The notes: generated from the sequence alone by a model not told the origin. A DNA stretch of 64,000 bases from a virus (IMGVR_UViG_3300005937_000004:1-64000); one strand, 5' to 3'; counted from the first letter of the stretch, positions 7,826-52,215 are shown. A program made the numbers and translations.

Positions 7826-10773
7826 TGCCTCCAGCACTCTTAGCTTTCCTGAAAAAGAACGCAAAGTTCATGTACGGCACCGGCATACTCGGTGCCGCAT
7901 TTGTGGCGAGCGACATCAAAAAGGTGTCTGATGCCGACAACAAATTCTCGGCACTTTTGAGGATCTTTAAAGACTTCCTGACGGTCCGAATTGGTCTGGT
8001 AGCTCTCTTCACTGGTGTCTCCACTGCAATGAAGAACCTGGTCAGGGACAGCGGTTCACTGGAAGCTGCTCTTAAAAAGCTTTCACTGATGCAGGTCATC
8101 AGCCGTCAGTTCCAAGGATTTGTCGGCAGCCTGGATGCAGCAAGGAAACGCATCTCCGAGATGGAGACGCTCAGCAAACGTGGTCCATTCAGGTTTGAAG
8201 AACTGCTCGAAGCCAATAAGGCACTGGAAGTATTTACCAGGGGAGCATTTTCATCAGTCGAAGCCACCCAGGAAGTTGGTCAAGCCGCGATCGCTACCGG
8301 AAACAATGTTGCTGATGTAGCCCGAGCTGTTGGCGCTTTCTACGACAATTTACGGTCCGGTCAACCTGTTGCTCAGACCGCCGACCAGCTGCGGCAAATG
8401 GGAGTCATTACCCAGGAAACTGCCGAACATCTGGAAAGTATGGCTCGCAGTGGCGAAGACGCTACATCAGTGTTCGCGGAACTGCGTAGTGCTATGGCCA
8501 TAACAGGCCAATCTGCCAAGGGTTACGGAGACGAATTGGAAGCGGTAAATCTCCAACACGAACAGCTCGTAGAGGAGATGAAGCAAAAGTTCGGTGCACC
8601 TTTTGCTCAAGCAGAAATCGACAACGCGAAGAATATGAATGCCGCGCTCAAGGCATACATACCCATTGTCGAGCAGATCGCTAAAGGTAGCGCCAGGCTA
8701 TACGGCGGATTTAATACTGTCACCTCGTCAGTCATCAGGCTTGCTGCTGAAAGTAAACTGGGTCAGAAAGCTGTAATCGCTATAGCCACAGCGCTTCAGG
8801 CGCTCACAGTAGCTGCGGCTGGTTATGGAATATTCGTTGGCGTAAAACTGATCCCCACCCTGGCAACACTCGGAGCTGCTGGGACACGGCTGGCTGGGGT
8901 TCTGTCTGTGCTCGGTCGGTTTGCTGGAATAGCAACCGTTGGGCTTCGTATCGCTGCGGTAGGATCTGTGGTTGGATTGATCGCCACGGCAGTGGCAGGT
9001 CTCGCTGGCGCAATGATCAACATGCGCAGGGAAACCGCCAGAGCGCAGAAAGAATTTCGCGACTGGGAGAAAGCCCATAACGACGCTACCGCTGCATTGG
9101 CAGCGCAGGTTGCTGCAGTCAGGACGCTCACTGACAAAAACGAAGCACTGGCCAAAGGCATCAGAGAGCTGATTGCTCTTGAGAAAGAACTTGCGGAAGT
9201 CAGCGGTGAAGCTGCCAAAGCAGAGCAGGAACGCGCACTGGCTGCGATACGTCGTAAGGCTGGCATACCAGAGGAACGCAAACCTGGTGAACCTGTTCCA
9301 ACCGCACTACCCACGCCAGATCCTGAGTATGAGAAAACACGCAAACAATATGTTGAGATCACCACCCGAATAAAGGAACTCGAAAAGGAGCGCGAAAATC
9401 TCAACAGGATTCCGGCTGCCCCCACTGGTCCTGGCGGCCCCGGTGCTACTCCGCCGCCGATCCCGCGTCCTTCAGCAATCCCTGATGAGATCAAGCGAAC
9501 CAATGCGGACATAGATAGAGAGATCGCTGAGCAGAAAAAGAAATTGGCTGAGCTTGGTAAACCGGCAGCTCTGCCACCTGGGGTAAAACCTGGGGAATCG
9601 CGTGGCCAACGGTTTCTGGAAACCATACGCGGGTTCAAAGGCAACGAACCTCTCAGCGAACAGATCAGGAGAGCTGTGGAATCATTGGGACCAGCTCCTG
9701 GACCAAGTGAATCACAGCAGGCCAAAACGATCATACTGCGCCAACAGATTGAGCTCCATAAAGAAATCATCGCGCAGTTGGCTCAGGAAGATGTGTTGCA
9801 TGAGAAACTGTTGGCAGCAGAAACCGAACGTCGTTATGCGATCGAGGAACAACGCAAAGGAGTCGAAGAGCGCTACAAACAGGGCAAGGCCGGGATCGAA
9901 GCTGAAGCCAGAGTTGAAGACCAGAGATCCAAAATCGATAAGGACATAATCGAGAGACAAGCTCGGTTGGAAGCAGACCGGAAATCCTTTGCTGCTGCCG
10001 AGAACATGAGTCAGGCAGACCGCAAGAAGAAGAAAGAAGAATTCAAAAAAGCCGAGCAGGACATCACGGATCTGCAGGCCAAACGGTTGGCAGTCGGTGC
10101 AGCTGGAACCCCCGAAACATCTGCTGTCTTTCTACGGACACGCGCCGAACAATTCCGTCAGGCTAGACACGCTGATGTTCTGGAAGCCCAGATTAAAGCA
10201 ATGGAAGCACAAGGCGCTGTTGTTCCACGGGCAACACGAGTGGAAGCCGAACGCGCCAGGGCTGCGGCTGGCGGAGTTCAATACAACAAAGCTTTGGCTG
10301 AAGAAGCTGAGATCAAAGCGCGATTGGCTGAACGAGCTGAAGAGCGGGTGCCTGAACTGGGAGCTGAAATACCCGGGGTGCAGAGACGCAGGATGGAAGA
10401 AGAAAGGGAGACCGCACTCATTCAAGCACGGGCTTCTGGAGATTTACGTAAAGCATTTAAGCTGGAAGATTTAAGCAGGTTTGCCAGAACATTCGAACGC
10501 TTGAAACCTGAGTTTGGTGAGAAGGAAGCTGCTGTGATGGCCAGGGCGCGAACAGACGCAGAGATCAAAGAGCAATACGCTCAGGCAGGAAACGTTGTTG
10601 GTTACCTTCAATCCATTGGCGGTGGCGGTGGATTGCCTCAAGCCGGAATGGATTTACAACGTCGACTTCTTGATGTGGCGATCGAACAGAAAGAATATTT
10701 AAAGCAGATTGCTCAACCAGAACAAACAGCGGCTGAATCCCAAGGGCTTCCAGCATTCTTTTTCAACCCATAA
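7825..10773 (+). CDS. Tape measure protein
   Basis: 982 aa, Ala-rich helical, hydrophobic central stretch, coiled-coil C-terminal half; canonical position. Confidence 0.85.
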   Translation: MPPALLAFLKKNAKFMYGTGILGAAFVASDIKKVSDADNKFSALLRIFKDFLTVRIGLVALFTGVSTAMKNLVRDSGSLEAALKKLSLMQVISRQFQGFVGSLDAARKRISEMETLSKRGPFRFEELLEANKALEVFTRGAFSSVEATQEVGQAAIATGNNVADVARAVGAFYDNLRSGQPVAQTADQLRQMGVITQETAEHLESMARSGEDATSVFAELRSAMAITGQSAKGYGDELEAVNLQHEQLVEEMKQKFGAPFAQAEIDNAKNMNAALKAYIPIVEQIAKGSARLYGGFNTVTSSVIRLAAESKLGQKAVIAIATALQALTVAAAGYGIFVGVKLIPTLATLGAAGTRLAGVLSVLGRFAGIATVGLRIAAVGSVVGLIATAVAGLAGAMINMRRETARAQKEFRDWEKAHNDATAALAAQVAAVRTLTDKNEALAKGIRELIALEKELAEVSGEAAKAEQERALAAIRRKAGIPEERKPGEPVPTALPTPDPEYEKTRKQYVEITTRIKELEKERENLNRIPAAPTGPGGPGATPPPIPRPSAIPDEIKRTNADIDREIAEQKKKLAELGKPAALPPGVKPGESRGQRFLETIRGFKGNEPLSEQIRRAVESLGPAPGPSESQQAKTIILRQQIELHKEIIAQLAQEDVLHEKLLAAETERRYAIEEQRKGVEERYKQGKAGIEAEARVEDQRSKIDKDIIERQARLEADRKSFAAAENMSQADRKKKKEEFKKAEQDITDLQAKRLAVGAAGTPETSAVFLRTRAEQFRQARHADVLEAQIKAMEAQGAVVPRATRVEAERARAAAGGVQYNKALAEEAEIKARLAERAEERVPELGAEIPGVQRRRMEEERETALIQARASGDLRKAFKLEDLSRFARTFERLKPEFGEKEAAVMARARTDAEIKEQYAQAGNVVGYLQSIGGGGGLPQAGMDLQRRLLDVAIEQKEYLKQIAQPEQTAAESQGLPAFFFNP

Positions 10774-42645: not shown

Positions 42646-43494
42646 TTATTGTTTCTGCATCATTTCGGCTTTCATAATGTCGAATGCCGAAACTTCGACT
42701 CCGTTCACTATGCAACCGTTGTCGTCACAGCAACCCATGTTGTAACAAGTGAACCACAGGAAGTGTATCTGGCAGCGATACCCATCGGGACAACAGATTG
42801 GTCGTGTCCAATACCATCCGCATTCAGACCCGCCGTAATACCACACAGGAGCGCAATAATGTGTTCCTGGCGCACACTCGATTGGCGTAGGAGATGGCGG
42901 CAATGGTGTTGGCGTGGGTGATGGCGTTGGCGTAGGGGTAGGGTACGGTGTAGGCCGTGGCACCGGCGTCGGTGATGCCGAGCAAGCTGGATGCGTAATG
43001 CGGTCGCGTGTTCTTACCGTATATTGTTGCCCAAGGCAGAACGTCGCACCCGCCCAGACTGCTTGCCAATCCGGACCAATGTGCGGGATGCCGTCGGCAG
43101 CCGCTATCCAATAGGTGTCAGTTGGGAATGTATGTGGCAGACCGTCGCACACGACGTTATCGAAGCGACGAACAATGTGCACCGTGTCGGTAAGACAGCC
43201 GGTGAGGTTCGTCGGAACACTCATGCAACCACCAGTTTTCGGAGTGTGCCCCGGTGGACATGAGTAAACTACTGTACCAATCCCGTAGCCTTTGACCGTC
43301 AATTGTATGTCTGTATAGACGGTTGTGACAAGTGGGTTTGGCACTTCTGGTTCCATGTTCTGATATTCAGTGTGCATTACCACTGTGTCCGAATCCGTCC
43401 CGTTTGGTTGGGGGTTTACCTGCGCCACTAGCGCAGCCATTACTGCGGTTAATACTGCCGCTAATATCAGCAGTAAGCTTATTGTTCTTTTCAT
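42646..43494 (-). CDS. Secreted Cys-rich protein with a Pro/Thr linker
   Basis: Signal peptide, (PT)n linker, Cys-rich domains on both sides; GAAAGGAAA RBS. Confidence 0.7.
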   Translation of the reverse strand: MKRTISLLLILAAVLTAVMAALVAQVNPQPNGTDSDTVVMHTEYQNMEPEVPNPLVTTVYTDIQLTVKGYGIGTVVYSCPPGHTPKTGGCMSVPTNLTGCLTDTVHIVRRFDNVVCDGLPHTFPTDTYWIAAADGIPHIGPDWQAVWAGATFCLGQQYTVRTRDRITHPACSASPTPVPRPTPYPTPTPTPSPTPTPLPPSPTPIECAPGTHYCAPVWYYGGSECGWYWTRPICCPDGYRCQIHFLWFTCYNMGCCDDNGCIVNGVEVSAFDIMKAEMMQKQ

Positions 43495-43525: not shown

Positions 43526-43599
43526 GGGCAGGGGAAGGAATCGAACCTTCAAAGAGAATCCCGCAAAGACTCTTGCCTTAGCCATTCAGCCACCCTGCC
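43526..43599 (-). tRNA. Atypical tRNA (loop TT-TGC-GG, 6-bp anticodon stem, no G3:U70)
   Basis: GGCAGGG/CCCTGCC; D arm GCTGAATGGCTAAGGC; AGAGTC/GATTCT; T arm GAAGG-TTCGATT-CCTTC; no CCA. Confidence 0.7.
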
Positions 43600-44199: not shown

Positions 44200-44480
44200 A
44201 TGGGGGGGGTTGCCTCCGGATAGCAGCCGTGAACCCAGAAAAGCGCCACACGCGGCGTTTCCCGCTCCTCTCAGAGTCGGGCAGGTTTTACCACGGATTT
44301 TGACCAGCTTTAATCTTTCAACCCTCAGCGTTTAGAACCTAAACTTTCAGTTTTAAGCTTTCAGCTTTGAGTTGGTGCGGGAATCGAACCCGCGAATCCA
44401 TTTTTGCACAATGGTCAAGATTGTGATTCTTGAATTGTAGTCGTGTGTTTTATCTCCGTTTCGCTAATGAAGGCAAACTG
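44200..44480 (-). ncRNA. Predicted structured ncRNA: tRNA-like domain + ten 7-nt repeats + multi-stem domain
   Basis: Anticodon-like hairpin 44415-44433; hairpin 44398-44414; perfect T arm GCGGG-TTCGATT-CCCGC 44377-44393; heptamer array 44300-44370; CCGTG/CACGG-closed domain 44227-44296; no ORF. Confidence 0.65.
44300..44370 (-). repeat. Heptamer tandem array (consensus TRAAAGY)
   Basis: TCAAAGC TGAAAGC TTAAAAC TGAAAGT TTAGGTT CTAAACG (C) TGAGGGT TGAAAGA TTAAAGC TGGTCAA. Confidence 0.75.
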
Positions 44481-44493
44481 TTAAAATTGTAAA

Positions 44494-44566
44494 AGGCGAG
44501 GAATCGGGTTCGAACCGAGCTCTACCGGAATTATCCGATTGTTTTGCCGTACTAAACTACCCCGCC
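44494..44566 (-). tRNA. tRNA-like element with a collapsed anticodon loop
   Basis: GGCGGGG/CCTCGCC; D arm GTTT/AAAC; ATCGGA-TAAT-TCCGGT; T loop TTCGAAC with an imperfect stem. Confidence 0.6.
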
Positions 44567-45134: not shown

Positions 45135-45976
45135 TTACCTTGCCTGCTGTACCGAGCTTGAACGTGCCGCGACCTGTCATATCTCGCCTGTTCCTTCCTT
45201 ATCCCGCCTGCCAGTCCTGAGCGAACGTTACCCCGCACTAACCATCTTACGGGACCCCGACTCGCCTGCCACGCCGTAGACCGACAGATCGCCCAAGACG
45301 ATCTCCACCCGGACGGGCCTGCCGTACCAGTTCTTTTCACCTACAGAGCGATCAGCTCCGCTTACGCCCTGCCTGCCATGCCAGTCCCCTGTTTGGTCAT
45401 TCTCCGCTATCTCAATACCGGACTGACCTGTACCCGCCTCTCCTGCATTTCCGGACCGAAGACTCCCGTGGCTACCGAGTCCCGCTTTACTGTCCGGACC
45501 TCACTGGAACACTCTACTGGTTCCGTACCGAGCCGCGCCTGCCCAACCAATCAAGGACTCTATAGATCCAACTCCAACGAACTGGACCCCATCAATCCCT
45601 GCCTGCTAAATCTATCCTTGCCATTCTAAATCAGCCCATGACGGCCCCAGGTCATAGCTACCCTCATCTTGCCTGCAGTTCCTATCTCTACCGATAGAAG
45701 ACTTTCCGAAGCCAATCCGTCGTTGCCAAACCCAACCTGCGCGATCGGGCCTGCCCCGCCATACACACATCCGACTGTACCGGGACGTATCTTGCCTGCC
45801 ATACCATTCCCCTGCTACTACGAAGCTTTTCACAACTATCTGGACCTGATCTTTCCATGCCTGCCGTGGCTTAGCTTGGTCATCCCCAATCTATCTAACC
45901 ATTCTCTTCTACGCCTGCCGTGCCTACTGATTCCTTGCTGCTGCCCTTCACAACCCGCTTAACCTTCCCCGCCTGC
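45135..45976 (-). repeat. VIPR-like guide array, sub-array C (about 13-14 units)
   Basis: GCCTGC (+ strand) at 45142, 45206, 45264, 45317, 45371, ~45441, 45537, 45601, 45671, 45749, 45794, 45859, 45913, 45971; 5-nt NN+triplet periodicity between them. Confidence 0.8.
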
Positions 45977-46000
45977 GGAATTGACATTGGAAATAGATGT

Positions 46001-46225
46001 GTGCCCGGTAAACTTGGAAGTCCATCTCCAATCGAGACGATCTGGCTCTTAGAACAGTTCGAAAAACTTCACAACGAGCATCTATTGATCTTGAGAAAGA
46101 TCGATGAAATCCAAACGACAATTAATCCAGCTTTAGAAAAGCAGGTGCGTTTGGCATTGACACTCGCCACAAAGGTTGACCAAAAAGTTCCAGACATAAA
46201 TGTCCCACCATCAACCAAACCGTAA
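46001..46225 (+). CDS. Small coiled-coil protein inside the array
   Basis: GTG 46001 is in frame with ORF 45920-46225 and 14 nt after TTGACA (45981). Confidence 0.6.
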   Translation: MPGKLGSPSPIETIWLLEQFEKLHNEHLLILRKIDEIQTTINPALEKQVRLALTLATKVDQKVPDINVPPSTKP

Positions 46226-46237
46226 GGATAAAAAACC

Positions 46238-46483
46238 ATGGCAATGACACAAGCAGAAGCTACCGCAGCGCTGACCAAAACCAACGAAACGCTGGTCAAG
46301 ATCAGCAATGAAACCGACGCGCTCCTTCGTGAGATCGAAGCTTTGAAGAAAGCCTTAGCCGACGCTGGCGGACCGGGTGGAACGATCACGCCAGAATTGG
46401 AAGCTGCCGTCAACGCAGTTGGAACAAGGGCGGAAGCCATTGACCAGCTGGTCGAGGATGTGCCTCAGCCAGAGGGCAAATAA
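46238..46483 (+). CDS. Small acidic Ala-rich coiled-coil protein
   Basis: 81 aa, natural composition, follows the previous ORF. Confidence 0.7.
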   Translation: MAMTQAEATAALTKTNETLVKISNETDALLREIEALKKALADAGGPGGTITPELEAAVNAVGTRAEAIDQLVEDVPQPEGK

Positions 46484-46547
46484 TTTTATTTGACTCGCTG
46501 TCGGAATAGGAATAGAAATTCTGGCAAGGTTAAGGCATTAAGATCGT

Positions 46548-46589
46548 GTGGGGCGGGCAGCCGTAAAAAGCGCCGCCCCGCCACTTTTT
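46548..46589 (+). terminator. Probable intrinsic terminator of the plus-strand cassette
   Basis: GC-rich imperfect hairpin GTGGGGCGG...CCGCCCCGCCAC followed by TTTTT. Confidence 0.55.
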
Positions 46590-47500
46590 AACGAACCGGG
46601 CTGGAGATACCTGGTCGCTCCAATTCAAACCCCGCCTGCGCTATCATTCCATACCCAAACGGGATCGATCATGCGATCCCAATCTTGCCTATTCCCGCCT
46701 GCCTGATCAAACCAAGTCAAGCCTGACCCGCTCCATAGCTCTACTGTCTGCGCCACCCGTCCCAAAACCGTCCATGCCTGCCGTGCCTTTAGGTGCCTGA
46801 GCGAATCAATACTTCAAGCCCTTGCCTCGCCTGCCGATCCTTGCCGACGCAAGATCATTCCTGGGCTCTACAGTTCATGACTTGTTTCTTCCCGCCTGCT
46901 GTTCCCAGCCCGATCCGGACTGAGCTCTCCACAGTAATCCCATACAATTCATACCTGCCGTGCTTATTCCCATTTCTCCCCAGTTGACTGCTCTATAGCA
47001 TTCCTCGCCTGCCGTTCCGAAGCTTCCTAGATCCACCATACCTCGATCCGTCCATAGACCGATCGAGCACACCAACCAGCTCCTCGCCTGCCCTGCCATC
47101 CCCGAGCTCAGTTCGACCTCATCGTGACAGTCCAGCTTCTCCGTGCCTTGACCCTCGCCCCCCAACGTTACGGACCGAACTCACCACGCCTGCGCATCCG
47201 AGCCAACACCGCTTGACCCAACTGGACCGGTTCCCAGCCCATTAGTCTAAGCCCAACCTCGCCTGCCCCACTGCGTTTTTCCGAACCAACCCGGACCTGA
47301 CCCAAAAGGATCAAATCCCTCTGCCCATACCATGCCTGCGATGCCCCATCTTGGTTCACCAAATCGGGGTGGAACAGTCCAGATAACGCCTGCCACAGAA
47401 TATCTATCCCGCGCAACCCAGGTCTCATCTATTCGTGATACCAGCTCTCCAGGCCTGCCTTGCCATGACGCAGCCCGGCTACTCAAGCTGCATCCAAAAT
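46590..47500 (-). repeat. VIPR-like guide array, sub-array B (about 13 units)
   Basis: GCCTGC at 46634, 46697, 46776, 46829, 46894, 46953 (variant), 47007, 47086, 47188, 47261, 47334, 47388, 47453. Confidence 0.8.
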
Positions 47501-47571
47501 TATTTCTGCTGCGATTTATGGGCATGGCAGCAATAAACAACCCACAAACCACGGAAAAACAGAGTGCCCCA

Positions 47572-47691
47572 ATGACAGGTGGTGGCAATCCTGTTGTTCA
47601 TCCTAATGATCCGAGTATTACTCCGGAGGAAAGAGAACGGCGGGAGCGTGAGGAACGTGAACGCCAGCGAAAACAGAAGCAGTCGAAATAA
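47572..47691 (+). CDS. Very small charged protein
   Basis: MTGGGNPVVHPNDPSITPEERERREREERERQRKQKQSK; start uncertain. Confidence 0.4.
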   Translation: MTGGGNPVVHPNDPSITPEERERREREERERQRKQKQSK

Positions 47692-47754
47692 CTGCATCGC
47701 TTGTGATGGTTCAAAGCCTCACAAGCGAACATATTGACACCTGGAGGATTTAGT

Positions 47755-48090
47755 ATGCCTACAGCACACAAGGAAACCAAACACACGGTCGCTGGTCCGG
47801 ACCCAGTTCCGGAATACCGACATGAAGCGGAAAGAAAAGCCCGTGAAGAAGCAGAAGAAGCAAGCGAAAAAGCCAAAAAAGAAGGTCCACCAAAGCCTCA
47901 AGCGCAAATCGACGCGGAGCTCGCAGAAAAAGGTGGCGACGTCCCAGAAGAAAGGCAAGGTGTCCCAACCGAAGCCAGACGCTGGACAGCCGTGGAACGA
48001 GAACGCGAGGAGCGCGCTGATTACGAAAAGTTTAAAGCGGAGTACGCTGCTGAGTGGAACAAGCGACACGCCGCCAAAGCTTCCAAGTGA
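47755..48090 (+). CDS. Small charged protein inside the array
   Basis: ATG 47755 with a GGAGG RBS, 15 nt after TTGACA (47734). Confidence 0.65.
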   Translation: MPTAHKETKHTVAGPDPVPEYRHEAERKAREEAEEASEKAKKEGPPKPQAQIDAELAEKGGDVPEERQGVPTEARRWTAVEREREERADYEKFKAEYAAEWNKRHAAKASK

Positions 48091-48100
48091 GGATGGGGGT

Positions 48101-48134
48101 GGAGAGCGTCCCTTTGTATAGAAGGACGCCCTCC
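48101..48134. terminator. Hairpin between the converging plus ORF and minus array A
   Basis: GGAGAGCGTCC-12 nt-GGACGCCCTCC, 10 of 11 bp paired. Confidence 0.45.
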
Positions 48135-48139
48135 GTTTA

Positions 48140-48343
48140 GCGTGTCATGGCATGCCGTTTCTTGCCCCGGTAGCCCCGGTGCAACTCGGCTCGCCTGCCG
48201 GACCTTGCCGACCCGTGGTGTACCATGGTGGACCAAGTTCCACCCCATCTATATCGACAAATCCATGCCTGCCCCGCTGTAGCAGGTCCCAGGGTACCGT
48301 GAACCGATAACCCTCATTTCGCCACGCCTGCCGAACTCTGCCG
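48140..48343 (-). repeat. VIPR-like guide array, sub-array A (3 units), directly after the partner gene stop
   Basis: GCCTGCC at 48193, 48267, 48326; spacings 74 and 59 (5n+4). Confidence 0.8.
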
Positions 48344-48811
48344 TTAGTTGTCGGTTAGCACTAATTTGAGTTCTTTCTGGAATTTCTTAGAAGCAGCAAA
48401 GACCTCGGATAATTCACCGAGATTTTTATATTTCTTTTCAAATTCCAAAAGTTCTGCCCTTGCATCAGCCAGGAGTTGCATGCGCAAAGATTTGTTGCTC
48501 ATCACGTCTACCATCGCCCTGTAGCCGCCACCGGCAGTGCGGTCTGGCCTTAAGGAGGTGAAAACGCGAATTGCTCTGCGGTCTCCATTCATCCGGACGT
48601 ATTTAACAACGCACCGAACGAGATGGCCTGCTTGGATTAAGCGGTATTCAGCTGCCGCCTCTGAATCATCCCACTCAAAGTATTTGTGTAGGATGCTACT
48701 CTTTGGTCGAGCTGCTTGGACCACTGCCTCCGCTCGGAGGATTCCCTCCGGGTCCTGATCCCTGATCCGGTTGAGTTCCCGGATCACCATCGGATTGCTT
48801 ATGTCGTACAT
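48344..48811 (-). CDS. Conserved partner protein of the RAMP-like gene
   Basis: LHKYFEWDDSEAAAEYRLIQA...ARAELLEFEKKY; start re-called at MYDISNP. Confidence 0.75.
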   Translation of the reverse strand: MYDISNPMVIRELNRIRDQDPEGILRAEAVVQAARPKSSILHKYFEWDDSEAAAEYRLIQAGHLVRCVVKYVRMNGDRRAIRVFTSLRPDRTAGGGYRAMVDVMSNKSLRMQLLADARAELLEFEKKYKNLGELSEVFAASKKFQKELKLVLTDN

Positions 48812-49019
48812 CGGCTTTTTTCCTCTCCCACATACCGACTTTCGCTCCCTTTTTCTGTGAGATCTCATTGGCTATATCACGAACATTGTCCATGATTCTG
48901 GCTGCAACACTGATCTCTTCAGGCGAAGGGTTCTTGCTATAGACCCTGGCCTCCACCCTGCCGGAGACCTGGCCTTCATCAGCCGGTTGTTCTCGGATTT
49001 GAATGAGGATGTCGATCAC
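48696..49019 (-). CDS. Possible small protein between the RAMP-like gene and its partner
   Basis: GTG overlaps the RAMP-gene stop (GTGA); the 3' end overlaps the partner gene. Confidence 0.4.
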   Translation of the reverse strand: MIDILIQIREQPADEGQVSGRVEARVYSKNPSPEEISVAARIMDNVRDIANEISQKKGAKVGMWERKKADVRHKQSDGDPGTQPDQGSGPGGNPPSGGSGPSSSTKE

Positions 49020-49708
49020 TTTTGCTCGACCTCGAATAGGCCCCAGCCTTGACCGGGACTGTTTCGAGAATCGGGTCGACCTTCGCAGATTCCGACCTGT
49101 AATCCAACTCGCATCAACAGGTTGGTGACGTCTTTCAACTGGAACTGATCTGCGTCCCAGCGGATCTTGACGTTCGCTTCCCATGGCATGTACTTGGCTC
49201 GAATAGCCACATACGGTTGCCCTGTTTCAACCCGAGCGATCGACTTGAGAAGTTCTGGTTTCCCATGAAGCCGGATCAATGGGATGGTCGGTTCTGTCCC
49301 GTCCCAGCCGTCCTGCACGACGAAGATGGAAAGTTTGGCTAACGTCATCTTGAAGTTGACCAACCTGCAGGCCGAAATGCAGGCATTGCGAATAGAGCCA
49401 GCATGAAATCCATCCCAACCCTGCGGTGAAATGTAACGAGCCTGTATGAAAGACTCGTTAATGTCCTGCGGTTCTCGCTTCTTCTTTGAAGACGCCGATT
49501 TTCCTTCCATCTGCTTGGCTAACATTTCGTCAGCCACCTTTTTGCTGAACCGGTGTATTACCAGAGGTACACCAGATAGACCGCTGATCTTGAATACCGC
49601 CGTCTGGAAGTTTGGCGGTGTGATAGTGACCGTCATTCGACGTTCACCGTCCAGTGACGGCTTTTTAGTCATCCGTCGAGACTTTGCTGTTAGGGTTGAT
49701 GTTGCCAT
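49016..49708 (-). CDS. RAMP/Cas7-like protein (Vipr-like effector)
   Basis: FKISGLSGVPLVIHRF, GWDGFHAGSIRNACISAC and a C-terminal Gly-rich loop VGLQVGICEGRP...GQGWGLFEV; adjacent pentamer arrays; no cas1/cas2 or CRISPR repeats. Confidence 0.75.
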   Translation of the reverse strand: MATSTLTAKSRRMTKKPSLDGERRMTVTITPPNFQTAVFKISGLSGVPLVIHRFSKKVADEMLAKQMEGKSASSKKKREPQDINESFIQARYISPQGWDGFHAGSIRNACISACRLVNFKMTLAKLSIFVVQDGWDGTEPTIPLIRLHGKPELLKSIARVETGQPYVAIRAKYMPWEANVKIRWDADQFQLKDVTNLLMRVGLQVGICEGRPDSRNSPGQGWGLFEVEQK

Positions 49709-49801: not shown

Positions 49802-50380
49802 ATGTTGTCGCAGGCTGCTATAGCCCGTGAGTGGGGTGTGTCCCGAGCTTACGTTAATCAGCTGGTAAAGCGTGGTTTACCGCTTGACTCTTTTGAGAAT
49901 GCCAGGCTATGGCGCGATGCTCATGCTCGGAAGCGCGCCCCCACTGACCCAGTGCAATTAGCTCACCTTGAGGAAGCCGATAGACCTCAAAGTTCGACCG
50001 AACCAATGCCAGCAGGAGACGCGCTTCAGAACGCGAACCGCGCAGCTCAGGAAGCTTACAGACTGTTAAGCGAAGCGATGATAGAAGGTAAGACCAGCAA
50101 AATCTCAATCCTTCTGTCGGTGCATTCCAAAGCCCTGGAAGCAAAATGCCGGATTCAGACGATGATCCGGGAAGAGGAGGAGAGGCGCAACATCCTGATC
50201 CCACTGGCCAAAGCCCAGGAGATTACGAGACAAGCGTTTGAGGTCATTATCAAACGCTTAATCGCGCTGCCGCAGAATATTGCGCCTCGGTGCAATCCTC
50301 ATGATCCAACCCACGCATTGGGAATCTTGGAAGACGAATGTCGCGGGATAATCAGCGCAGCCCAGAAAGCGATCGCATGA
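49802..50380 (+). CDS. terS: Terminase small subunit (Nu1-like)
   Basis: N-terminal HTH SQAAIAREWGVSRAYVNQLVKRGLP; coupled to the large subunit. Confidence 0.8.
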   Translation: MLSQAAIAREWGVSRAYVNQLVKRGLPLDSFENARLWRDAHARKRAPTDPVQLAHLEEADRPQSSTEPMPAGDALQNANRAAQEAYRLLSEAMIEGKTSKISILLSVHSKALEAKCRIQTMIREEEERRNILIPLAKAQEITRQAFEVIIKRLIALPQNIAPRCNPHDPTHALGILEDECRGIISAAQKAIA

Positions 50381-52215
50381 GTCCTATCGACGATTACCGC
50401 GCTTTTGTTTCTGGGTTGCTCGCACCGCCACGGAAAATATCGGTGGTCGAATGGTGCGAAGAAAATGTAAGCGTTCCAACTGGGGCAGTTCAAGGTCAAC
50501 TTTCGATGCGAATGGCACCATATGGGCGTGAGATTCTTGAGCGCTTTGGGGACCGAAAAACCCGGTCTTTGACCTTATGCTTTGCTTCACAGTCGAGTAA
50601 GACGACCTTGATAATCTTGGGGATGTTGTATCGTCTTTGTAATAATCCCCAGGACGCGATGTGGGTGATGCCGAATCGGGAGTTGGCGAATTCATTTTCG
50701 AAGAGTCGCTGGATGAAGTTTATAACCGAATGTCCGCCGGTTAACGCGCTATTGCCGAGAACCAGCCGGAACGAGATCGATCGTCATATGTTTGCTTTTA
50801 TGGAGCAACATTTTCTGACGATGTTTCTGAAATTTGTGGGATCGAACTCACCGGCAAACTTGGCTTCGTTCCCTTGTGGAACATTGGTGATGGACGAGAC
50901 CGATAAGTACGGAGAACAAACAAAATACGAGGCCGCTGCTTTGGATCTTGCCGAGGAGAGAACGAAAACTTTCCCGTTTTCTTTGATTGTGAAAGCTTCG
51001 ACGCCAACCATGGCGGCAAGAATGATTTGGCCTGCTTTTGAGGCGAGCGATCAGAGGAGATATTGGGTTCCATGTCCAAGATGTGGTAAGGATATTTTGT
51101 TGAATTTTCGGCACACCAGTGAAACGCATGGGGATTGCGGTTTACGCTGGTGGCATGAGAATGAAAGCGAAGTAAAAACTGATGGGGAATGGGATCTCAA
51201 GAAGATTCGCGCAACCGCTTATTACAAATGCCAGGAATGCGGCGGCGCGATCCATGAATGGGAGCGACCCCGGATGTTGGAGGCCGGTGTTTGGAAGCCT
51301 TCCAACGACAAAGTCGACGAAGGAATTTATGGTTACCATCTTTCCAGTCTTTATTCCATCCTGTCGGACAAAACTTCTTTCGGTTCGATCGCGGTAAAAT
51401 GGATCGAATCGAAAAACTTTTTAAGTGGCAGGCAGAATTTCATCAATAGTTGGCTGGCTGAGACCTGGGACGCTGAAAGAGCGTTCGACCAGGCCGACGT
51501 CAAGACTGAGACAATTGACCTTAAATCGCTTCCTGAGAAGACGACCGCTATCATGTTCGCGGACGTTCAAGAAAATGGGTTCTGGGTGGTAATACGGCGC
51601 TTTATGCCGCCTTCTAAGGAACGACCGTATGGCGAAAGCTGGCTTCTTTACGCGGATTTTGTCGGGACGGAAGATGAGCTTGAATCTCTTTCCAAAGAAT
51701 ACGAGGTTGCGACCCAGAATGTTTTGCTCGACATGGCCCATCGCCCCAATCAAGTGGGACGAATGTGTATCGAACACAACTGGCGAGGGTTATGGGGAAG
51801 CGACACCAAGAGTTTCTACCACCGTCAAGCATCCGGTGTTCGGATTGAGCGCATTTATAGCGCTGTTCAACTGCGAGATCCGCACTTGGGTACGCATCTG
51901 GCCAATCGAACGTTTCAACGCGCCAAATACGTCAAGTATTCAAAGGAAGCTGCCCTCGACCTGGTATCCAGTCTCCGCTATTCGACTCCCACCATCTGGC
52001 ACGTCAGCGCCAACGTCTCAACCCGATACCAGCGGCAACTCAACTCAAAGGTTAAAGTGATGCAGCAATCCAAAAAGACTGGGCGGTTCGAAAGTTTCTG
52101 GAAAGATCTGCACTCTGAAGATCATTTGTTAGACGCCGAATGCGGTGTAGCGATCCAGGCTGTGATCCTCGGCCTGGTCGCTGTGCCGCAAGAGAAAATT
52201 GACATTGCGGCATGA
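50377..52215 (+). CDS. terL: Terminase large subunit, lambda GpA family
   Basis: FASQSSKT, SNSPANLAS, MDETDKY, ERTKTF, STPT, YWVPCPRCG, ADVQ and DHLLDAE motifs; start re-called at ATG 50377. Confidence 0.92.
   Translation: MSPIDDYRAFVSGLLAPPRKISVVEWCEENVSVPTGAVQGQLSMRMAPYGREILERFGDRKTRSLTLCFASQSSKTTLIILGMLYRLCNNPQDAMWVMPNRELANSFSKSRWMKFITECPPVNALLPRTSRNEIDRHMFAFMEQHFLTMFLKFVGSNSPANLASFPCGTLVMDETDKYGEQTKYEAAALDLAEERTKTFPFSLIVKASTPTMAARMIWPAFEASDQRRYWVPCPRCGKDILLNFRHTSETHGDCGLRWWHENESEVKTDGEWDLKKIRATAYYKCQECGGAIHEWERPRMLEAGVWKPSNDKVDEGIYGYHLSSLYSILSDKTSFGSIAVKWIESKNFLSGRQNFINSWLAETWDAERAFDQADVKTETIDLKSLPEKTTAIMFADVQENGFWVVIRRFMPPSKERPYGESWLLYADFVGTEDELESLSKEYEVATQNVLLDMAHRPNQVGRMCIEHNWRGLWGSDTKSFYHRQASGVRIERIYSAVQLRDPHLGTHLANRTFQRAKYVKYSKEAALDLVSSLRYSTPTIWHVSANVSTRYQRQLNSKVKVMQQSKKTGRFESFWKDLHSEDHLLDAECGVAIQAVILGLVAVPQEKIDIAA

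What the first reader, a model, noticed from the sequence alone, without database searches (positions are those of the whole stretch)
45135..49708. RAMP/Cas7-like gene with about 29 pentamer-coded guide units: a VIPR-type RNA-guided system in a phage
Seen in sequence: on the minus strand a 230-aa protein with a RAMP-style C-terminal Gly loop is followed by a conserved partner gene and then about 2 kb of non-coding units. Each unit starts with GGCAGGC and runs in 5-nt steps of two variable bases plus a G-rich triplet, e.g. GGCAGGC at|gga tt|tgt cg|ata ta|gat gg|ggt gg|aac tt|ggt cc|acc at|ggt ac|acc ac|ggg tc|ggc aa|ggt cc GGCAGGC. Several spacings are 5n+4 (54, 59, 64, 74, 79). Established knowledge: RAMP-fold proteins polymerise on RNA. 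From recall, to be verified: the recently reported VIPR systems pair a Cas7-related protein with GGY/NN repeat RNAs whose NN bases specify a gapped dsDNA target. Inference: this phage carries a large repertoire of such guides, probably against competing phages or host loci.
Basis: partly seen in the sequence, partly recalled or inferred. Interest (0 to 1): 0.9.

Follow-up and report, generated by a model that had tools for sequence, protein, structure and literature searches.

The report
Phage VIPR locus with 28 guides
This phage carries a real VIPR system, an RNA-guided DNA-silencing system first described in 2026, with an unusually long array of about 28 guides, two of which spell the conserved catalytic motif of DNA methyltransferase genes when read by the published code.

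Summary
The observation and the interpretation both hold. On the minus strand of a 79-kb virus record lie a 230-aa RAMP protein, a conserved 155-aa partner gene, and about 28 units of 45-102 nt in three blocks (45135-48338).

- **Array:** the units are NN+G-rich-triplet pentamers. G autocorrelation at lag 5 gives z 5.5-7.4, with none in controls. Units are joined by GGC-A-GGC.
- **Protein:** it shares PHROG 4652 with the characterised SUSP1 Vipr. Its family profile finds only 'SUSP1 Vipr protein' (36pp) in the PDB (E 5e-6). Its model matches Cas7-type RAMPs (Z 11).
- **Relatives:** 137 related loci show the same array grammar. Spacing is 5n+4 in 70% of adjacent pairs, which fits the published 'staggered, 1-nt-overlap' arrays.
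- **Status:** this is a new member of a known system (bioRxiv, April 2026), not a new kind.

The added result concerns targets. Read by the published two-read, one-skipped rule, unit 48193-48273 is the antisense of G-F-D-V-V-I-G-N-P-P-Y, motif IV of Eco57I-type N6-adenine methyltransferases. The best match is 27/28 bases, with 24 viral hits against about 2.6 expected. Unit 47188-47267 spells GGPPCQG, the C5-methyltransferase motif IV. Arrays in relatives carry equivalent guides (0 of 500 shuffles reach the observed counts).

Host, RNA processing and the targets of the other guides remain unknown. The scan's index lists a second first-stage reading of this same stretch from another window of this genome, and a withheld follow-up report.

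The parts
49016..49708 (-). vipr: 230-aa stand-alone RAMP protein, with an RRM core, a beta-hairpin thumb at about residues 151-173 and a Gly-rich loop at 206-224
   Evidence: ORF. PHROG 4652 at E 2.6e-9, the family that SUSP1 Vipr hits at 1.4e-96. Family profile against the PDB: the only significant hit is 36pp 'SUSP1 Vipr protein', E 4.8e-6. hhalign to SUSP1 Vipr gives 95% probability. AF2 model pLDDT 93. Csm3/Cmr4 matches at Z 10-11.
48696..49019 (-). Small 107-aa ORF whose GTG overlaps the vipr stop codon (GTGA). Function unknown.
   Evidence: Translation and tblastn: 52% identity over 108 aa in L004 and 40% over 67 aa in L003. It is seen only in the closest relatives.
48344..48811 (-). 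Partner gene, 155 aa from the ATG at 48811 (the longest ORF starts at 48868). It is the accessory (vap-like) gene of this clade.
   Evidence: Found next to vipr in 70 of 84 viral loci. PHROG 15946, not the vap1 family 5926. Its profile also hits Cy-LDV1 g33 (E 2e-26) and mycobacteriophage Brocalys gp46 (E 3e-24). No Pfam, PDB or Vap1 similarity. Its ESM Atlas clusters are viral only.
48120..48338 (-). Array block A: 3 units. The third runs into non-periodic sequence.
48193..48273 (-). Guide unit of 14 pentamers. Its NN string, read NNx, is the antisense of G-F-D-V-V-I-G-N-P-P-Y-R-[KN]-[IM].
   Evidence: Decoding. At least 119 metagenome hits, with every hit printed (the top 40) lying in this motif and frame; best 27/28. 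Eight of the best-matching ORFs all carry Pfam Eco57I and N6_Mtase domains, most also TaqI_C or MmeI_Mtase. 24 IMG/VR hits against about 2.6 expected.
47734..48090 (+). 118-aa Lys/Glu-rich ORF on the opposite strand, between array blocks A and B
   Evidence: ORF. 58% identity over 72 aa at the equivalent place in relative L002. No family match.
46600..47465 (-). Array block B: about 12 units, ending at a G+C-rich hairpin followed by T's (about 46555-46600)
47188..47267 (-). Guide unit whose NN string, read NNx in sense, is [DE]-[CW]-[FL]-L-G-G-P-P-C-Q-G
   Evidence: Decoding. All 3 exact IMG/VR seed hits fall on DVLLGGPPCQGFS of a 439-aa ORF, matching 22/28.
46238..46483 (+). 81-aa ORF on the opposite strand, between array blocks B and C
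   Evidence: ORF. 73% identity over 78 aa in L002.
45135..45982 (-). Array block C: about 13 units

Best explanation
This is a VIPR (Viral Interference Programmable Repeat) locus of a tailed phage.

**Shown.** The 230-aa protein is a homologue of the characterised SUSP1 Vipr and has a RAMP fold. The adjacent non-coding blocks are tandem pentamers of two free bases (NN) plus a G-rich triplet. Successive units are joined by GGC-A-GGC, that is, the pentamers GGCAG and GGCNN sharing one G. This shifts the register by one base and gives unit lengths of 5n+4, which corresponds to the 'staggered, 1-nt overlapping' array layout mentioned for some VIPR types.

**Inferred from the published mechanism.** The minus strand is transcribed and cut into about 28 vrRNAs of 9-19 pentamers. 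One Vipr protomer binds each pentamer, hiding the G-rich triplet and presenting the NN pair. The filament then reads double-stranded DNA in a two-read, one-skipped pattern and blocks transcription.

**Shown in silico.** Read by that rule, one unit spells the N6-adenine methyltransferase motif IV (GFDVVIGNPPY, on the antisense strand). Another spells the C5-cytosine methyltransferase motif IV (GGPPCQG, on the sense strand), with the skipped base at the codon wobble position. Relatives carry equivalent guides.

**Inferred.** Part of the repertoire consists of broad-spectrum guides that silence methyltransferase or restriction-modification genes of rival mobile elements or of the host. The conserved 155-aa partner is this clade's accessory protein; its role is unknown.
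For: **Literature definition of VIPR:**

**Protein**
- It shares PHROG 4652 with SUSP1 Vipr.
- The profile of 97 homologues finds only 36pp 'SUSP1 Vipr protein' in the PDB at a significant E-value (4.8e-6), aligning the thumb Arg and the G-loop (GIGEGRP against GVGDWRP).
- hhalign gives 95% probability, E 3.9e-8.
- The AF2 model has pLDDT 93. The top Foldseek and VIA matches are all CRISPR RAMPs: Csm3 Z 11.0, Cmr-beta subunit Z 10.7.

**Array**
- Delimiter enrichment; period 5 at z 5.5-7.4; unique in the genome.
- The position logo around the delimiter reads GG-Y-NN in register.

**Family**
- In 137 related loci there are 456 adjacent delimiter pairs on the vipr strand against 8 on the other strand.
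- 318 of the 456 are spaced 5n+4. The logo is GG[C>T]NN with near-uniform NN.
- The same arrays occur beside vipr in Cyanophage Cy-LDV1 and mycobacteriophage Brocalys.
- The partner gene is conserved.

**Targets**
- Decoding.
- At least 119 metagenome seed hits and 24 viral seed hits. All 24 viral hits and every metagenome hit printed lie in GFDVV[IM]GNPP[YFW] of Eco57I-type genes; best matches are 27/28 and 26/28.
- The C5 guide lands on DVLLGGPPCQGFS.
- In other arrays, [GA]NPP[YF] guides (L004, L133) and PCQx[FW]S guides (L002, twice) occur at counts reached by 0 of 500 shuffles. They are almost absent in the four wrong pentamer phases, with a single PCQ match.
- Guides on both the sense and antisense strands fit DNA targeting, not mRNA targeting.

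**Other**
- No self-target in the phage genome.
- No cas genes, CRISPR array or ribozyme nearby.
Against: - No RNA or binding data exist for this phage. Transcription, processing sites and Vipr loading are inferred.
- The window's triplets are markedly degenerate. Only 1-7 canonical GG triplets occur per 8-19 pentamers, whereas mutating GGY abolished silencing in SUSP1.
- SUSP1 Trp178, which stacks on the second G, aligns to an invariant Gly here. A Trp in an 8-residue insertion might replace it, but that is a guess.
- Only 2 of about 29 units gave a target. Three other guides gave nothing in IMG/VR. All guides were at shuffle level against 2.6 Mb of local sequence.
- The C5 guide matches only 79% of NN bases, and its 3' end lacks the usual Ser codon.
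- The methyltransferase motifs were recognised after decoding. The test in relatives is the independent part.
- The published seven-type scheme and the vap1-6 identities are in supplementary files not held here. The type is therefore unassigned, and the 'staggered' equivalence rests on a figure legend.
Confidence: 0.85

Rival explanations
1. The locus is a decaying or inactive VIPR array. The protein may be intact, but most units have drifted from the GGY grammar and no longer load Vipr, so the long array is largely a relic.
For: G frequency at the two triplet positions is 0.64 and 0.39 here, against about 0.8 and 0.75 in relatives. Half of the short spacings are not 5n+4. One unit is 14 nt, and several gaps of 102-166 nt occur.
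Against: The unit with six non-GGY triplets out of 14 still keeps all 14 NN pairs in register with a coding motif, matching 27/28. That argues for selection on the NN positions. The published work notes frequent internal degeneracy and accepts NNNNG-type repeats. The closest relatives L002 and L003 show the same style. Vipr and the partner are intact and highly conserved.
Confidence: 0.12
2. The methyltransferase-motif matches are coincidences or side effects. The real targets are other sequences, such as rival phages or satellites, and no guide is aimed at methyltransferase genes.
For: The motifs were recognised by eye after decoding. 27 of 29 units have no identified target. The exact 28/28 site was not found. 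The C5 guide matches only 22/28.
Against: An 11-codon perfect run (22 specified bases) was found, with the skip at every wobble position. There were 24 viral hits against about 2.6 expected, all in one motif and frame. Independent arrays in L004, L133 and L002 carry equivalent guides, at counts of 3 and 2 against shuffle means of 0.026 and 0.022; 0 of 500 shuffles reach them, and the wrong phases give almost none.
Confidence: 0.1
3. The RAMP protein belongs to an unrecognised CRISPR-like or other RNA-processing system, and the G-rich period-5 DNA has another role, for example a packaging or recombination site near the terminase genes.
For: The fold alone does not separate Vipr from Cas7, Cas5 or Cas6. 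The locus lies beside the terminase genes.
Against: The only significant sequence relative in the PDB is SUSP1 Vipr. There are no cas genes or CRISPR repeats. The array follows vipr, on its strand, in relatives with quite different neighbourhoods. In Brocalys and Cy-LDV1 it sits in the immunity region. The decoded guides obey the VIPR skip rule.
Confidence: 0.03

Closest known systems
SUSP1 / Pseudomonas fulva type II VIPR (Vipr + Vap1 + vrRNAs; bioRxiv 10.64898/2026.04.26.720920 and .720927; PDB 36pp)
   Same: Both have a stand-alone small RAMP protein with a conserved thumb Arg (R138 / R170) and a G-loop acidic-x-Arg-Pro (D177..R179 / E209..R211). His17 aligns to His52 in this subclade. Both are phage-borne two-gene cores flanked by GGY/NN pentamer RNAs of 9-16 repeats. 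Both have targets in coding DNA with the skipped base at the wobble position, on either strand.
   Different: - Pairwise identity is not detectable by BLASTP; only profiles link the two.
- SUSP1 Trp178 aligns to Gly, and the G-loop here has an 8-residue insertion.
- The accessory protein belongs to another family (PHROG 15946 against 5926).
- There is no roughly 40-nt pseudoknot tail after each guide. Guides abut through GGC-A-GGC.
- There are about 28 guides here against 4 in SUSP1.
- The triplets are much more degenerate.
- The array is split by opposite-strand genes.
'Staggered vrRNA arrays' of other VIPR types (fig. S18 of the discovery preprint)
   Same: [quoted passage not shown] GGCAG plus GGCNN sharing one G gives exactly that, and explains the 5n+4 spacing.
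   Different: The figure, the type assignment and the example loci are not held here. The preprint says experimental confirmation was obtained for the ribozyme and single-guide layouts, and does not say so for the staggered one.
Class 1 CRISPR backbone proteins (Csm3, Cmr4, Cas7)
   Same: RRM core, thumb hairpin and Gly-rich loop. Z 9-11, rmsd 2.8-3.8 A over 134-151 residues. These proteins polymerise along a guide RNA.
   Different: There is no CRISPR repeat-spacer array, no other cas genes and no adaptation module. Guides are read discontinuously at a period of 5 nt, rather than being interrupted at every sixth base.

Membership tests
VIPR system | Vipr protein: homologous to characterised Vipr proteins | tested here: met
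   Same PHROG 4652 as SUSP1 Vipr (2.6e-9 against 1.4e-96). Profile against the PDB gives 36pp at E 4.8e-6, the only significant hit. hhalign gives 95% probability.
VIPR system | Minimal RAMP fold with thumb and glycine-rich loop, without a second RRM domain | tested here: met
   The AF2 model has pLDDT 93, a single RRM core, a hairpin at 151-173 and a Gly-rich loop at 206-224. The top 36 VIA rows are all CRISPR RAMPs, Z up to 11. Foldseek E about 1e-4.
VIPR system | GGY-binding residues of SUSP1 Vipr (H17, R138, D177, W178, R179) | tested here: inconclusive
   R138 aligns to R170 and R179 to R211, both invariant in close relatives (A2); R211 is also invariant and R170 at least 90% conserved across the wider family (A1). 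D177 aligns to E209. H17 aligns to H52, conserved only in the close subclade. W178 aligns to the invariant G210, with a conserved Trp (W222) in an insertion.
VIPR system | At least four tandem YNNGG-type pentamers (a vrRNA) beside vipr, on its strand | tested here: met
   About 28 units of 8-19 pentamers. Period-5 z is 5.5-7.4. The family logo is GG[C>T]NN. The triplets in this window are degenerate.
VIPR system | Minimal locus: no CRISPR array and no other cas genes; usually viral | tested here: met
   ORFs with Pfam and PHROG scans. Rfam finds only a tRNA and a sub-threshold tmRNA-like match outside the array. It is a virus record with terminase genes.
VIPR system | Accessory vap gene next to vipr | tested here: inconclusive
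   A conserved 155-aa partner is present in 70 of 84 loci and in Cy-LDV1 and Brocalys. It is not Vap1. Whether it is one of vap2-6 cannot be checked, because the supplementary data are not held.
VIPR system | NN pairs specify a DNA target with one skipped base per pair | tested here: met
   This was tested in silico only. Unit 48193-48273 matches 27/28 and 26/28 in Eco57I-type genes, with the skip at the wobble position, at ten-fold excess over chance. The C5 guide matches 22/28. The result is replicated in relatives' arrays.
VIPR system | vrRNAs are expressed, processed and bound by Vipr; the complex represses transcription | not testable with these tools
   Requires small-RNA sequencing, pull-down and reporter assays.
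Type II VIPR (SUSP1-like) | Conserved structured 3' tail (pseudoknot) after each repeat tract; Vap1 | tested here: not met
   Units abut through a 7-nt junction with no tail. The partner is not in the Vap1 family.
CRISPR-Cas (class 1) | Repeat-spacer array plus multiple cas genes | tested here: not met
   There are no direct repeats longer than the 7-nt junction and no cas families in the neighbourhood.

The most novel reading that the evidence does not exclude
VIPR arrays of this clade carry broad-spectrum guides aimed at the near-invariant catalytic motif IV of DNA methyltransferases: NPPY/F of N6-adenine enzymes, including type IIG, type I and BREX-like genes, and PCQ of C5 enzymes. The skipped base absorbs wobble variation. 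One guide could therefore silence whole families of restriction-modification genes, or the protective methyltransferase genes of rivals or of the host. This target class is not mentioned in the main text of the discovery preprint, the one VIPR paper searched for it. In addition, the register-keeping but GGY-poor units here suggest that this Vipr clade tolerates non-GGY triplets.
Probability: 0.5. Interest if true: 0.75.

Novelty: new member of a known kind. Interest (0 to 1): 0.58.

Why it matters
VIPR was described only in 2026 and has been characterised mainly in one coliphage clade with four guides.

- **Scale.** This locus belongs to a very large, highly conserved clade: 1,751 clusters at 50% identity. 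Members occur in viral contigs and in genome bins labelled as many different bacterial phyla, in a cyanophage, and in culturable Mycobacterium smegmatis phages.
- **Array layout.** It shows the tail-less, register-shifted array layout at full scale, with about 28 guides.
- **Targets.** Two decoded guides, and their counterparts in relatives, point to DNA methyltransferase genes as a recurrent target. If real, that links RNA-guided silencing to restriction-modification conflicts. It would also show how a wobble-skipping code allows one guide to cover a whole protein family.
- **Annotation.** The proteins of this clade are still labelled 'hypothetical'.

Tried and rejected
- **Direct sequence comparison.** Single-sequence AF2 failed (pLDDT 39). 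The single-sequence PDB search gave nothing. BLASTP of the protein against SUSP1 Vipr (E 2.5) and of the partner against Vap1 (E 10) gave nothing. Only profiles work.
- **Partner gene.** Pfam gave no hit for either protein. The partner's profile found nothing credible in the PDB (best E 0.05, methane monooxygenase) and nothing in Vap1. The ESM Atlas gives only viral hypothetical clusters.
- **RNA and regulatory signals.** Rfam finds no hammerhead or other family in the array. No sigma-70-like promoter was found.
- **Local target searches.** All 29 guides were at shuffle level against the phage's own genome plus 84 related loci (1.28 Mb). Against 1.34 Mb of fetched loci, only the two methyltransferase guides stood out.
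- **Collection scans for other guides.** IMG/VR scans with seeds from units 45211 and 47091, and a 10-NN seed of unit 48272 that included the Arg codon, gave 0 hits. An 8-NN seed of unit 46781 gave 41 hits with chance-level extension, at most 22/30. That scan served as the calibration of chance.
- **Shared guides.** A search for guide k-mers shared among loci found almost only near-duplicate contigs.
- **Tool limits.** The wide alignment A1 was too divergent for locus searching. Relatives of a virus record cannot be drawn, so the host could not be inferred.
- **Own methyltransferase.** The regex scan of the six frames found no [NDS]PP[YFW] site preceded by a methyltransferase-like motif; the one NPPY site looked at closely, at 8711, lies antisense to a 982-aa ORF.

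Full report
**What is there**

On the minus strand the window holds a 230-aa ORF (49016-49708). A 107-aa ORF starts on the stop codon of that gene (48696-49019). A 155-aa ORF follows (48344-48811). After these come three blocks of ORF-poor, G-rich sequence down to about 45135.

The heptamer GGCAGGC occurs 28 times in the window against 8.5 expected. Twenty of these copies lie on the minus strand between 45206 and 48332. With the core GCAGG[CT] there are 30 junctions, giving units of 45-102 nt. Thirteen of the 26 short spacings are 5n+4.

G autocorrelation at lag 5 exceeds dinucleotide shuffles by z 7.4 in block 46600-47470 and z 5.5 in block 45135-45985. It also exceeds them at lags 10 and 15. 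It is absent in the protein gene and in the two inter-block stretches. The 17 most period-5 windows of the whole 78.9-kb genome all lie in this locus on this strand.

Around each junction the bases read GG-Y-NN-GG-C-A-GG-C-NN-GG-H-NN in fixed register.
- The array is three blocks separated by small plus-strand genes, not one tract.
- The triplets inside units are much less regular than at unit ends.

**Is the recalled system real?**

Yes. Three bioRxiv preprints of 2026 describe VIPR.
- The system is a small stand-alone RAMP protein (Vipr), an accessory gene (vap) and vrRNAs of 9-16 YNNGG repeats.
- The NN pairs read double-stranded DNA with one skipped base per pair. The skip usually falls at the codon wobble position, and either strand can be read. 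The result is transcriptional silencing of rival elements.
- Seven types are described. Array layouts include tailed guides, hammerhead-separated guides, single guides and 'staggered arrays' whose guides overlap by 1 nt.

**The protein**

Pfam gives nothing. The protein does hit PHROG 4652 (E 2.6e-9, nearly full length). I located the SUSP1 Vipr in the phage record KT454805 and confirmed it by its published residues His17, Arg138 and Asp177-Trp178-Arg179. It hits the same PHROG at 1.4e-96.

The family is very large. It has 4,401 hits in the 90%-clustered set and 1,751 clusters at 50% identity.

A profile of 97 members searched against all PDB sequences finds one significant entry, 36pp 'SUSP1 Vipr protein' (E 4.8e-6). 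The alignment covers the thumb Arg and the G-loop. hhalign gives 95% probability.

With that alignment AlphaFold gives pLDDT 93. Foldseek's best hits are type III CRISPR effector-complex subunits (E about 1e-4). An exhaustive structural comparison gives Z 11.0 to Csm3, and the top 36 rows are all CRISPR RAMPs.

Of the five SUSP1 residues that hold the GGY triplet:
- Arg138 and Arg179 are conserved.
- Asp177 is Glu.
- His17 is His in this subclade.
- Trp178 aligns to an invariant Gly next to an 8-residue insertion that carries a conserved Trp.

**The family's arrays**

I fetched 84 viral and 53 genomic loci that encode relatives.
- In almost all of them the strongest period-5 G signal lies just downstream of vipr, on its strand.
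- Adjacent junction pairs number 456 on the vipr strand and 8 on the other.
- 318 of the 456 are spaced 5n+4 (39, 44, 49 ... 79).
- The logo is GG[C>T]NN, with near-uniform NN.

GGCAG followed by GGCNN with one shared G produces this junction and this spacing. That matches the preprint's legend for staggered arrays. I could not see the figure or the type table.

The 155-aa partner follows vipr in 70 of 84 viral loci. Its profile also finds Cy-LDV1 g33 and mycobacteriophage Brocalys gp46. Both of those phages have clean GGC-NN arrays with the same junction beside their vipr genes. The partner is not Vap1 and has no known relative.

**Targets**

Decoding each unit as NNx and searching both strands gave nothing above shuffled guides in the phage's own genome or in the related loci. 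This agrees with the preprint's report of no self-targeting.

Exact scans of public collections with seeds from five other guides gave nothing, or only chance hits.

The ten bases outside the seed matched far above chance, with a total mode of 23-24 of 28 and a best of 27 of 28.
- Every hit printed (the top 40) lies in one frame of one peptide, GFDVV[IM]GNPP[YW].
- The eight best-matching ORFs tested all carry Pfam Eco57I and N6_Mtase domains, most also TaqI_C or MmeI_Mtase. These are methyltransferases of type IIG restriction-modification enzymes and their relatives.
- The full unit decodes, on the antisense strand, to G-F-D-V-V-I-G-N-P-P-Y-R-[KN]-[IM].
- In IMG/VR the same seed gives 24 contigs, all in the same motif and frame, with a best of 26 of 28. 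About 2.6 were expected, calibrated on a 16-base pattern that gave 41 chance-like hits.

*The C5 guide.* A second unit (47188-47267) decodes in sense to D-x-[FL]-L-G-G-P-P-C-Q-G. From this I predicted that it would land on motif IV of C5-cytosine methyltransferases. All three exact seed hits do (DVLLGGPPCQGFS), although the overall match is only 22 of 28.

*Replication in other arrays.*
- L004 carries FDVVIANPPY and L133 carries RVVIANPPF, both antisense.
- L002 carries VGGPPCQAFS and GFPCQPFS, both sense.
- Across 799 units the counts are 3 for [GA]NPP[YF] and 2 for PCQx[FW]S, against shuffle means of 0.026 and 0.022. No shuffle out of 500 reaches them. Decoding in the four wrong pentamer phases gives none, apart from a single PCQ match.

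The phage's six frames show no comparable methyltransferase motif IV. Guides in both orientations fit DNA recognition rather than mRNA recognition.

**Reading**

The locus is a VIPR system with a long staggered array, which makes it a new member of a published kind. The mechanism is taken from the SUSP1 work and is not shown here. In that mechanism one protomer binds each pentamer, the NN pairs are presented, the target is read with gaps, and transcription is blocked.

The new lead is that part of the repertoire is aimed at the invariant catalytic motif of DNA methyltransferases. The wobble skip would let one guide cover a gene family. The discovery preprint's main text does not mention methyltransferases. 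I could not decide whether the targets are host restriction-modification or BREX-like genes, or the methyltransferases of rival phages. Hits occur both in viral contigs and in general metagenome contigs that were not classified.

The window's units are GGY-poor yet keep register with a coding target. This may mean that this clade tolerates non-GGY triplets. Alternatively, much of the array may be decaying.

Host, promoters, processing and the roles of the partner and of the interspersed small genes remain open.

Noticed in passing
window 47091 unit (47013-47092, minus); L002:12553; L003:11522: Three related phages carry apparently orthologous guides that decode to a similar peptide, roughly E-A-F-V-R-x-I-R-x-x-G-Y-K. 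The guide seems to track one unidentified target gene. An exact IMG/VR scan with the window's version found nothing.
   Followed up: partly
window 47734-48090 (+) and 46238-46483 (+): Small genes on the opposite strand split the array into three blocks. They are conserved at equivalent places only in the closest long relative, L002 (58% and 73% identity). No family match; function unknown.
   Followed up: partly
L327 (Mycobacterium phage Brocalys, NC_031262.1, gp45/gp46 and the gp44-gp45 spacer); L326 (Cyanophage Cy-LDV1 g34/g33): Phage records with named hosts, including Brocalys on M. smegmatis mc2155, carry the same Vipr clade, partner gene and very clean GGC-NN arrays with GGC-A-GGC junctions. 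All are annotated 'hypothetical protein' and lie in the immunity/excision region. 27 Mycobacterium and 5 Gordonia phage records match the protein.
   Followed up: partly
window 43526-43599 (-), 44494-44566 (-), 44376-44402 (-): A tRNA-Ala gene, a second tRNA-like call with an abnormal anticodon loop, and a short sub-threshold tmRNA-like Rfam match lie just downstream of the array.
   Followed up: no
window 46555-46600: A G+C-rich hairpin with T runs on both sides sits between array block B and the convergent 81-aa gene. It is a likely bidirectional terminator, which would imply that blocks B and C are separate transcripts.
   Followed up: no
window 49802-52215 (+): Small and large (GpA-type) terminase genes are transcribed divergently from vipr. 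The same neighbourhood occurs in L002 and L003.
   Followed up: partly
window 42646-43494 (-): A 282-aa Cys-rich protein with a signal-like N-terminus and a Pro/Thr-rich linker lies downstream of the 183-aa tail-fibre-like gene.
   Followed up: no
L086-L138: Close homologues of this Vipr clade (43-65% identity) occur in genome bins labelled as many different phyla: Bacteroidota, Acidobacteriota, Planctomycetota, Verrucomicrobiota, Cyanobacteria, Proteobacteria and candidate phyla radiation. That is unusually high conservation for a phage accessory protein.
   Followed up: no
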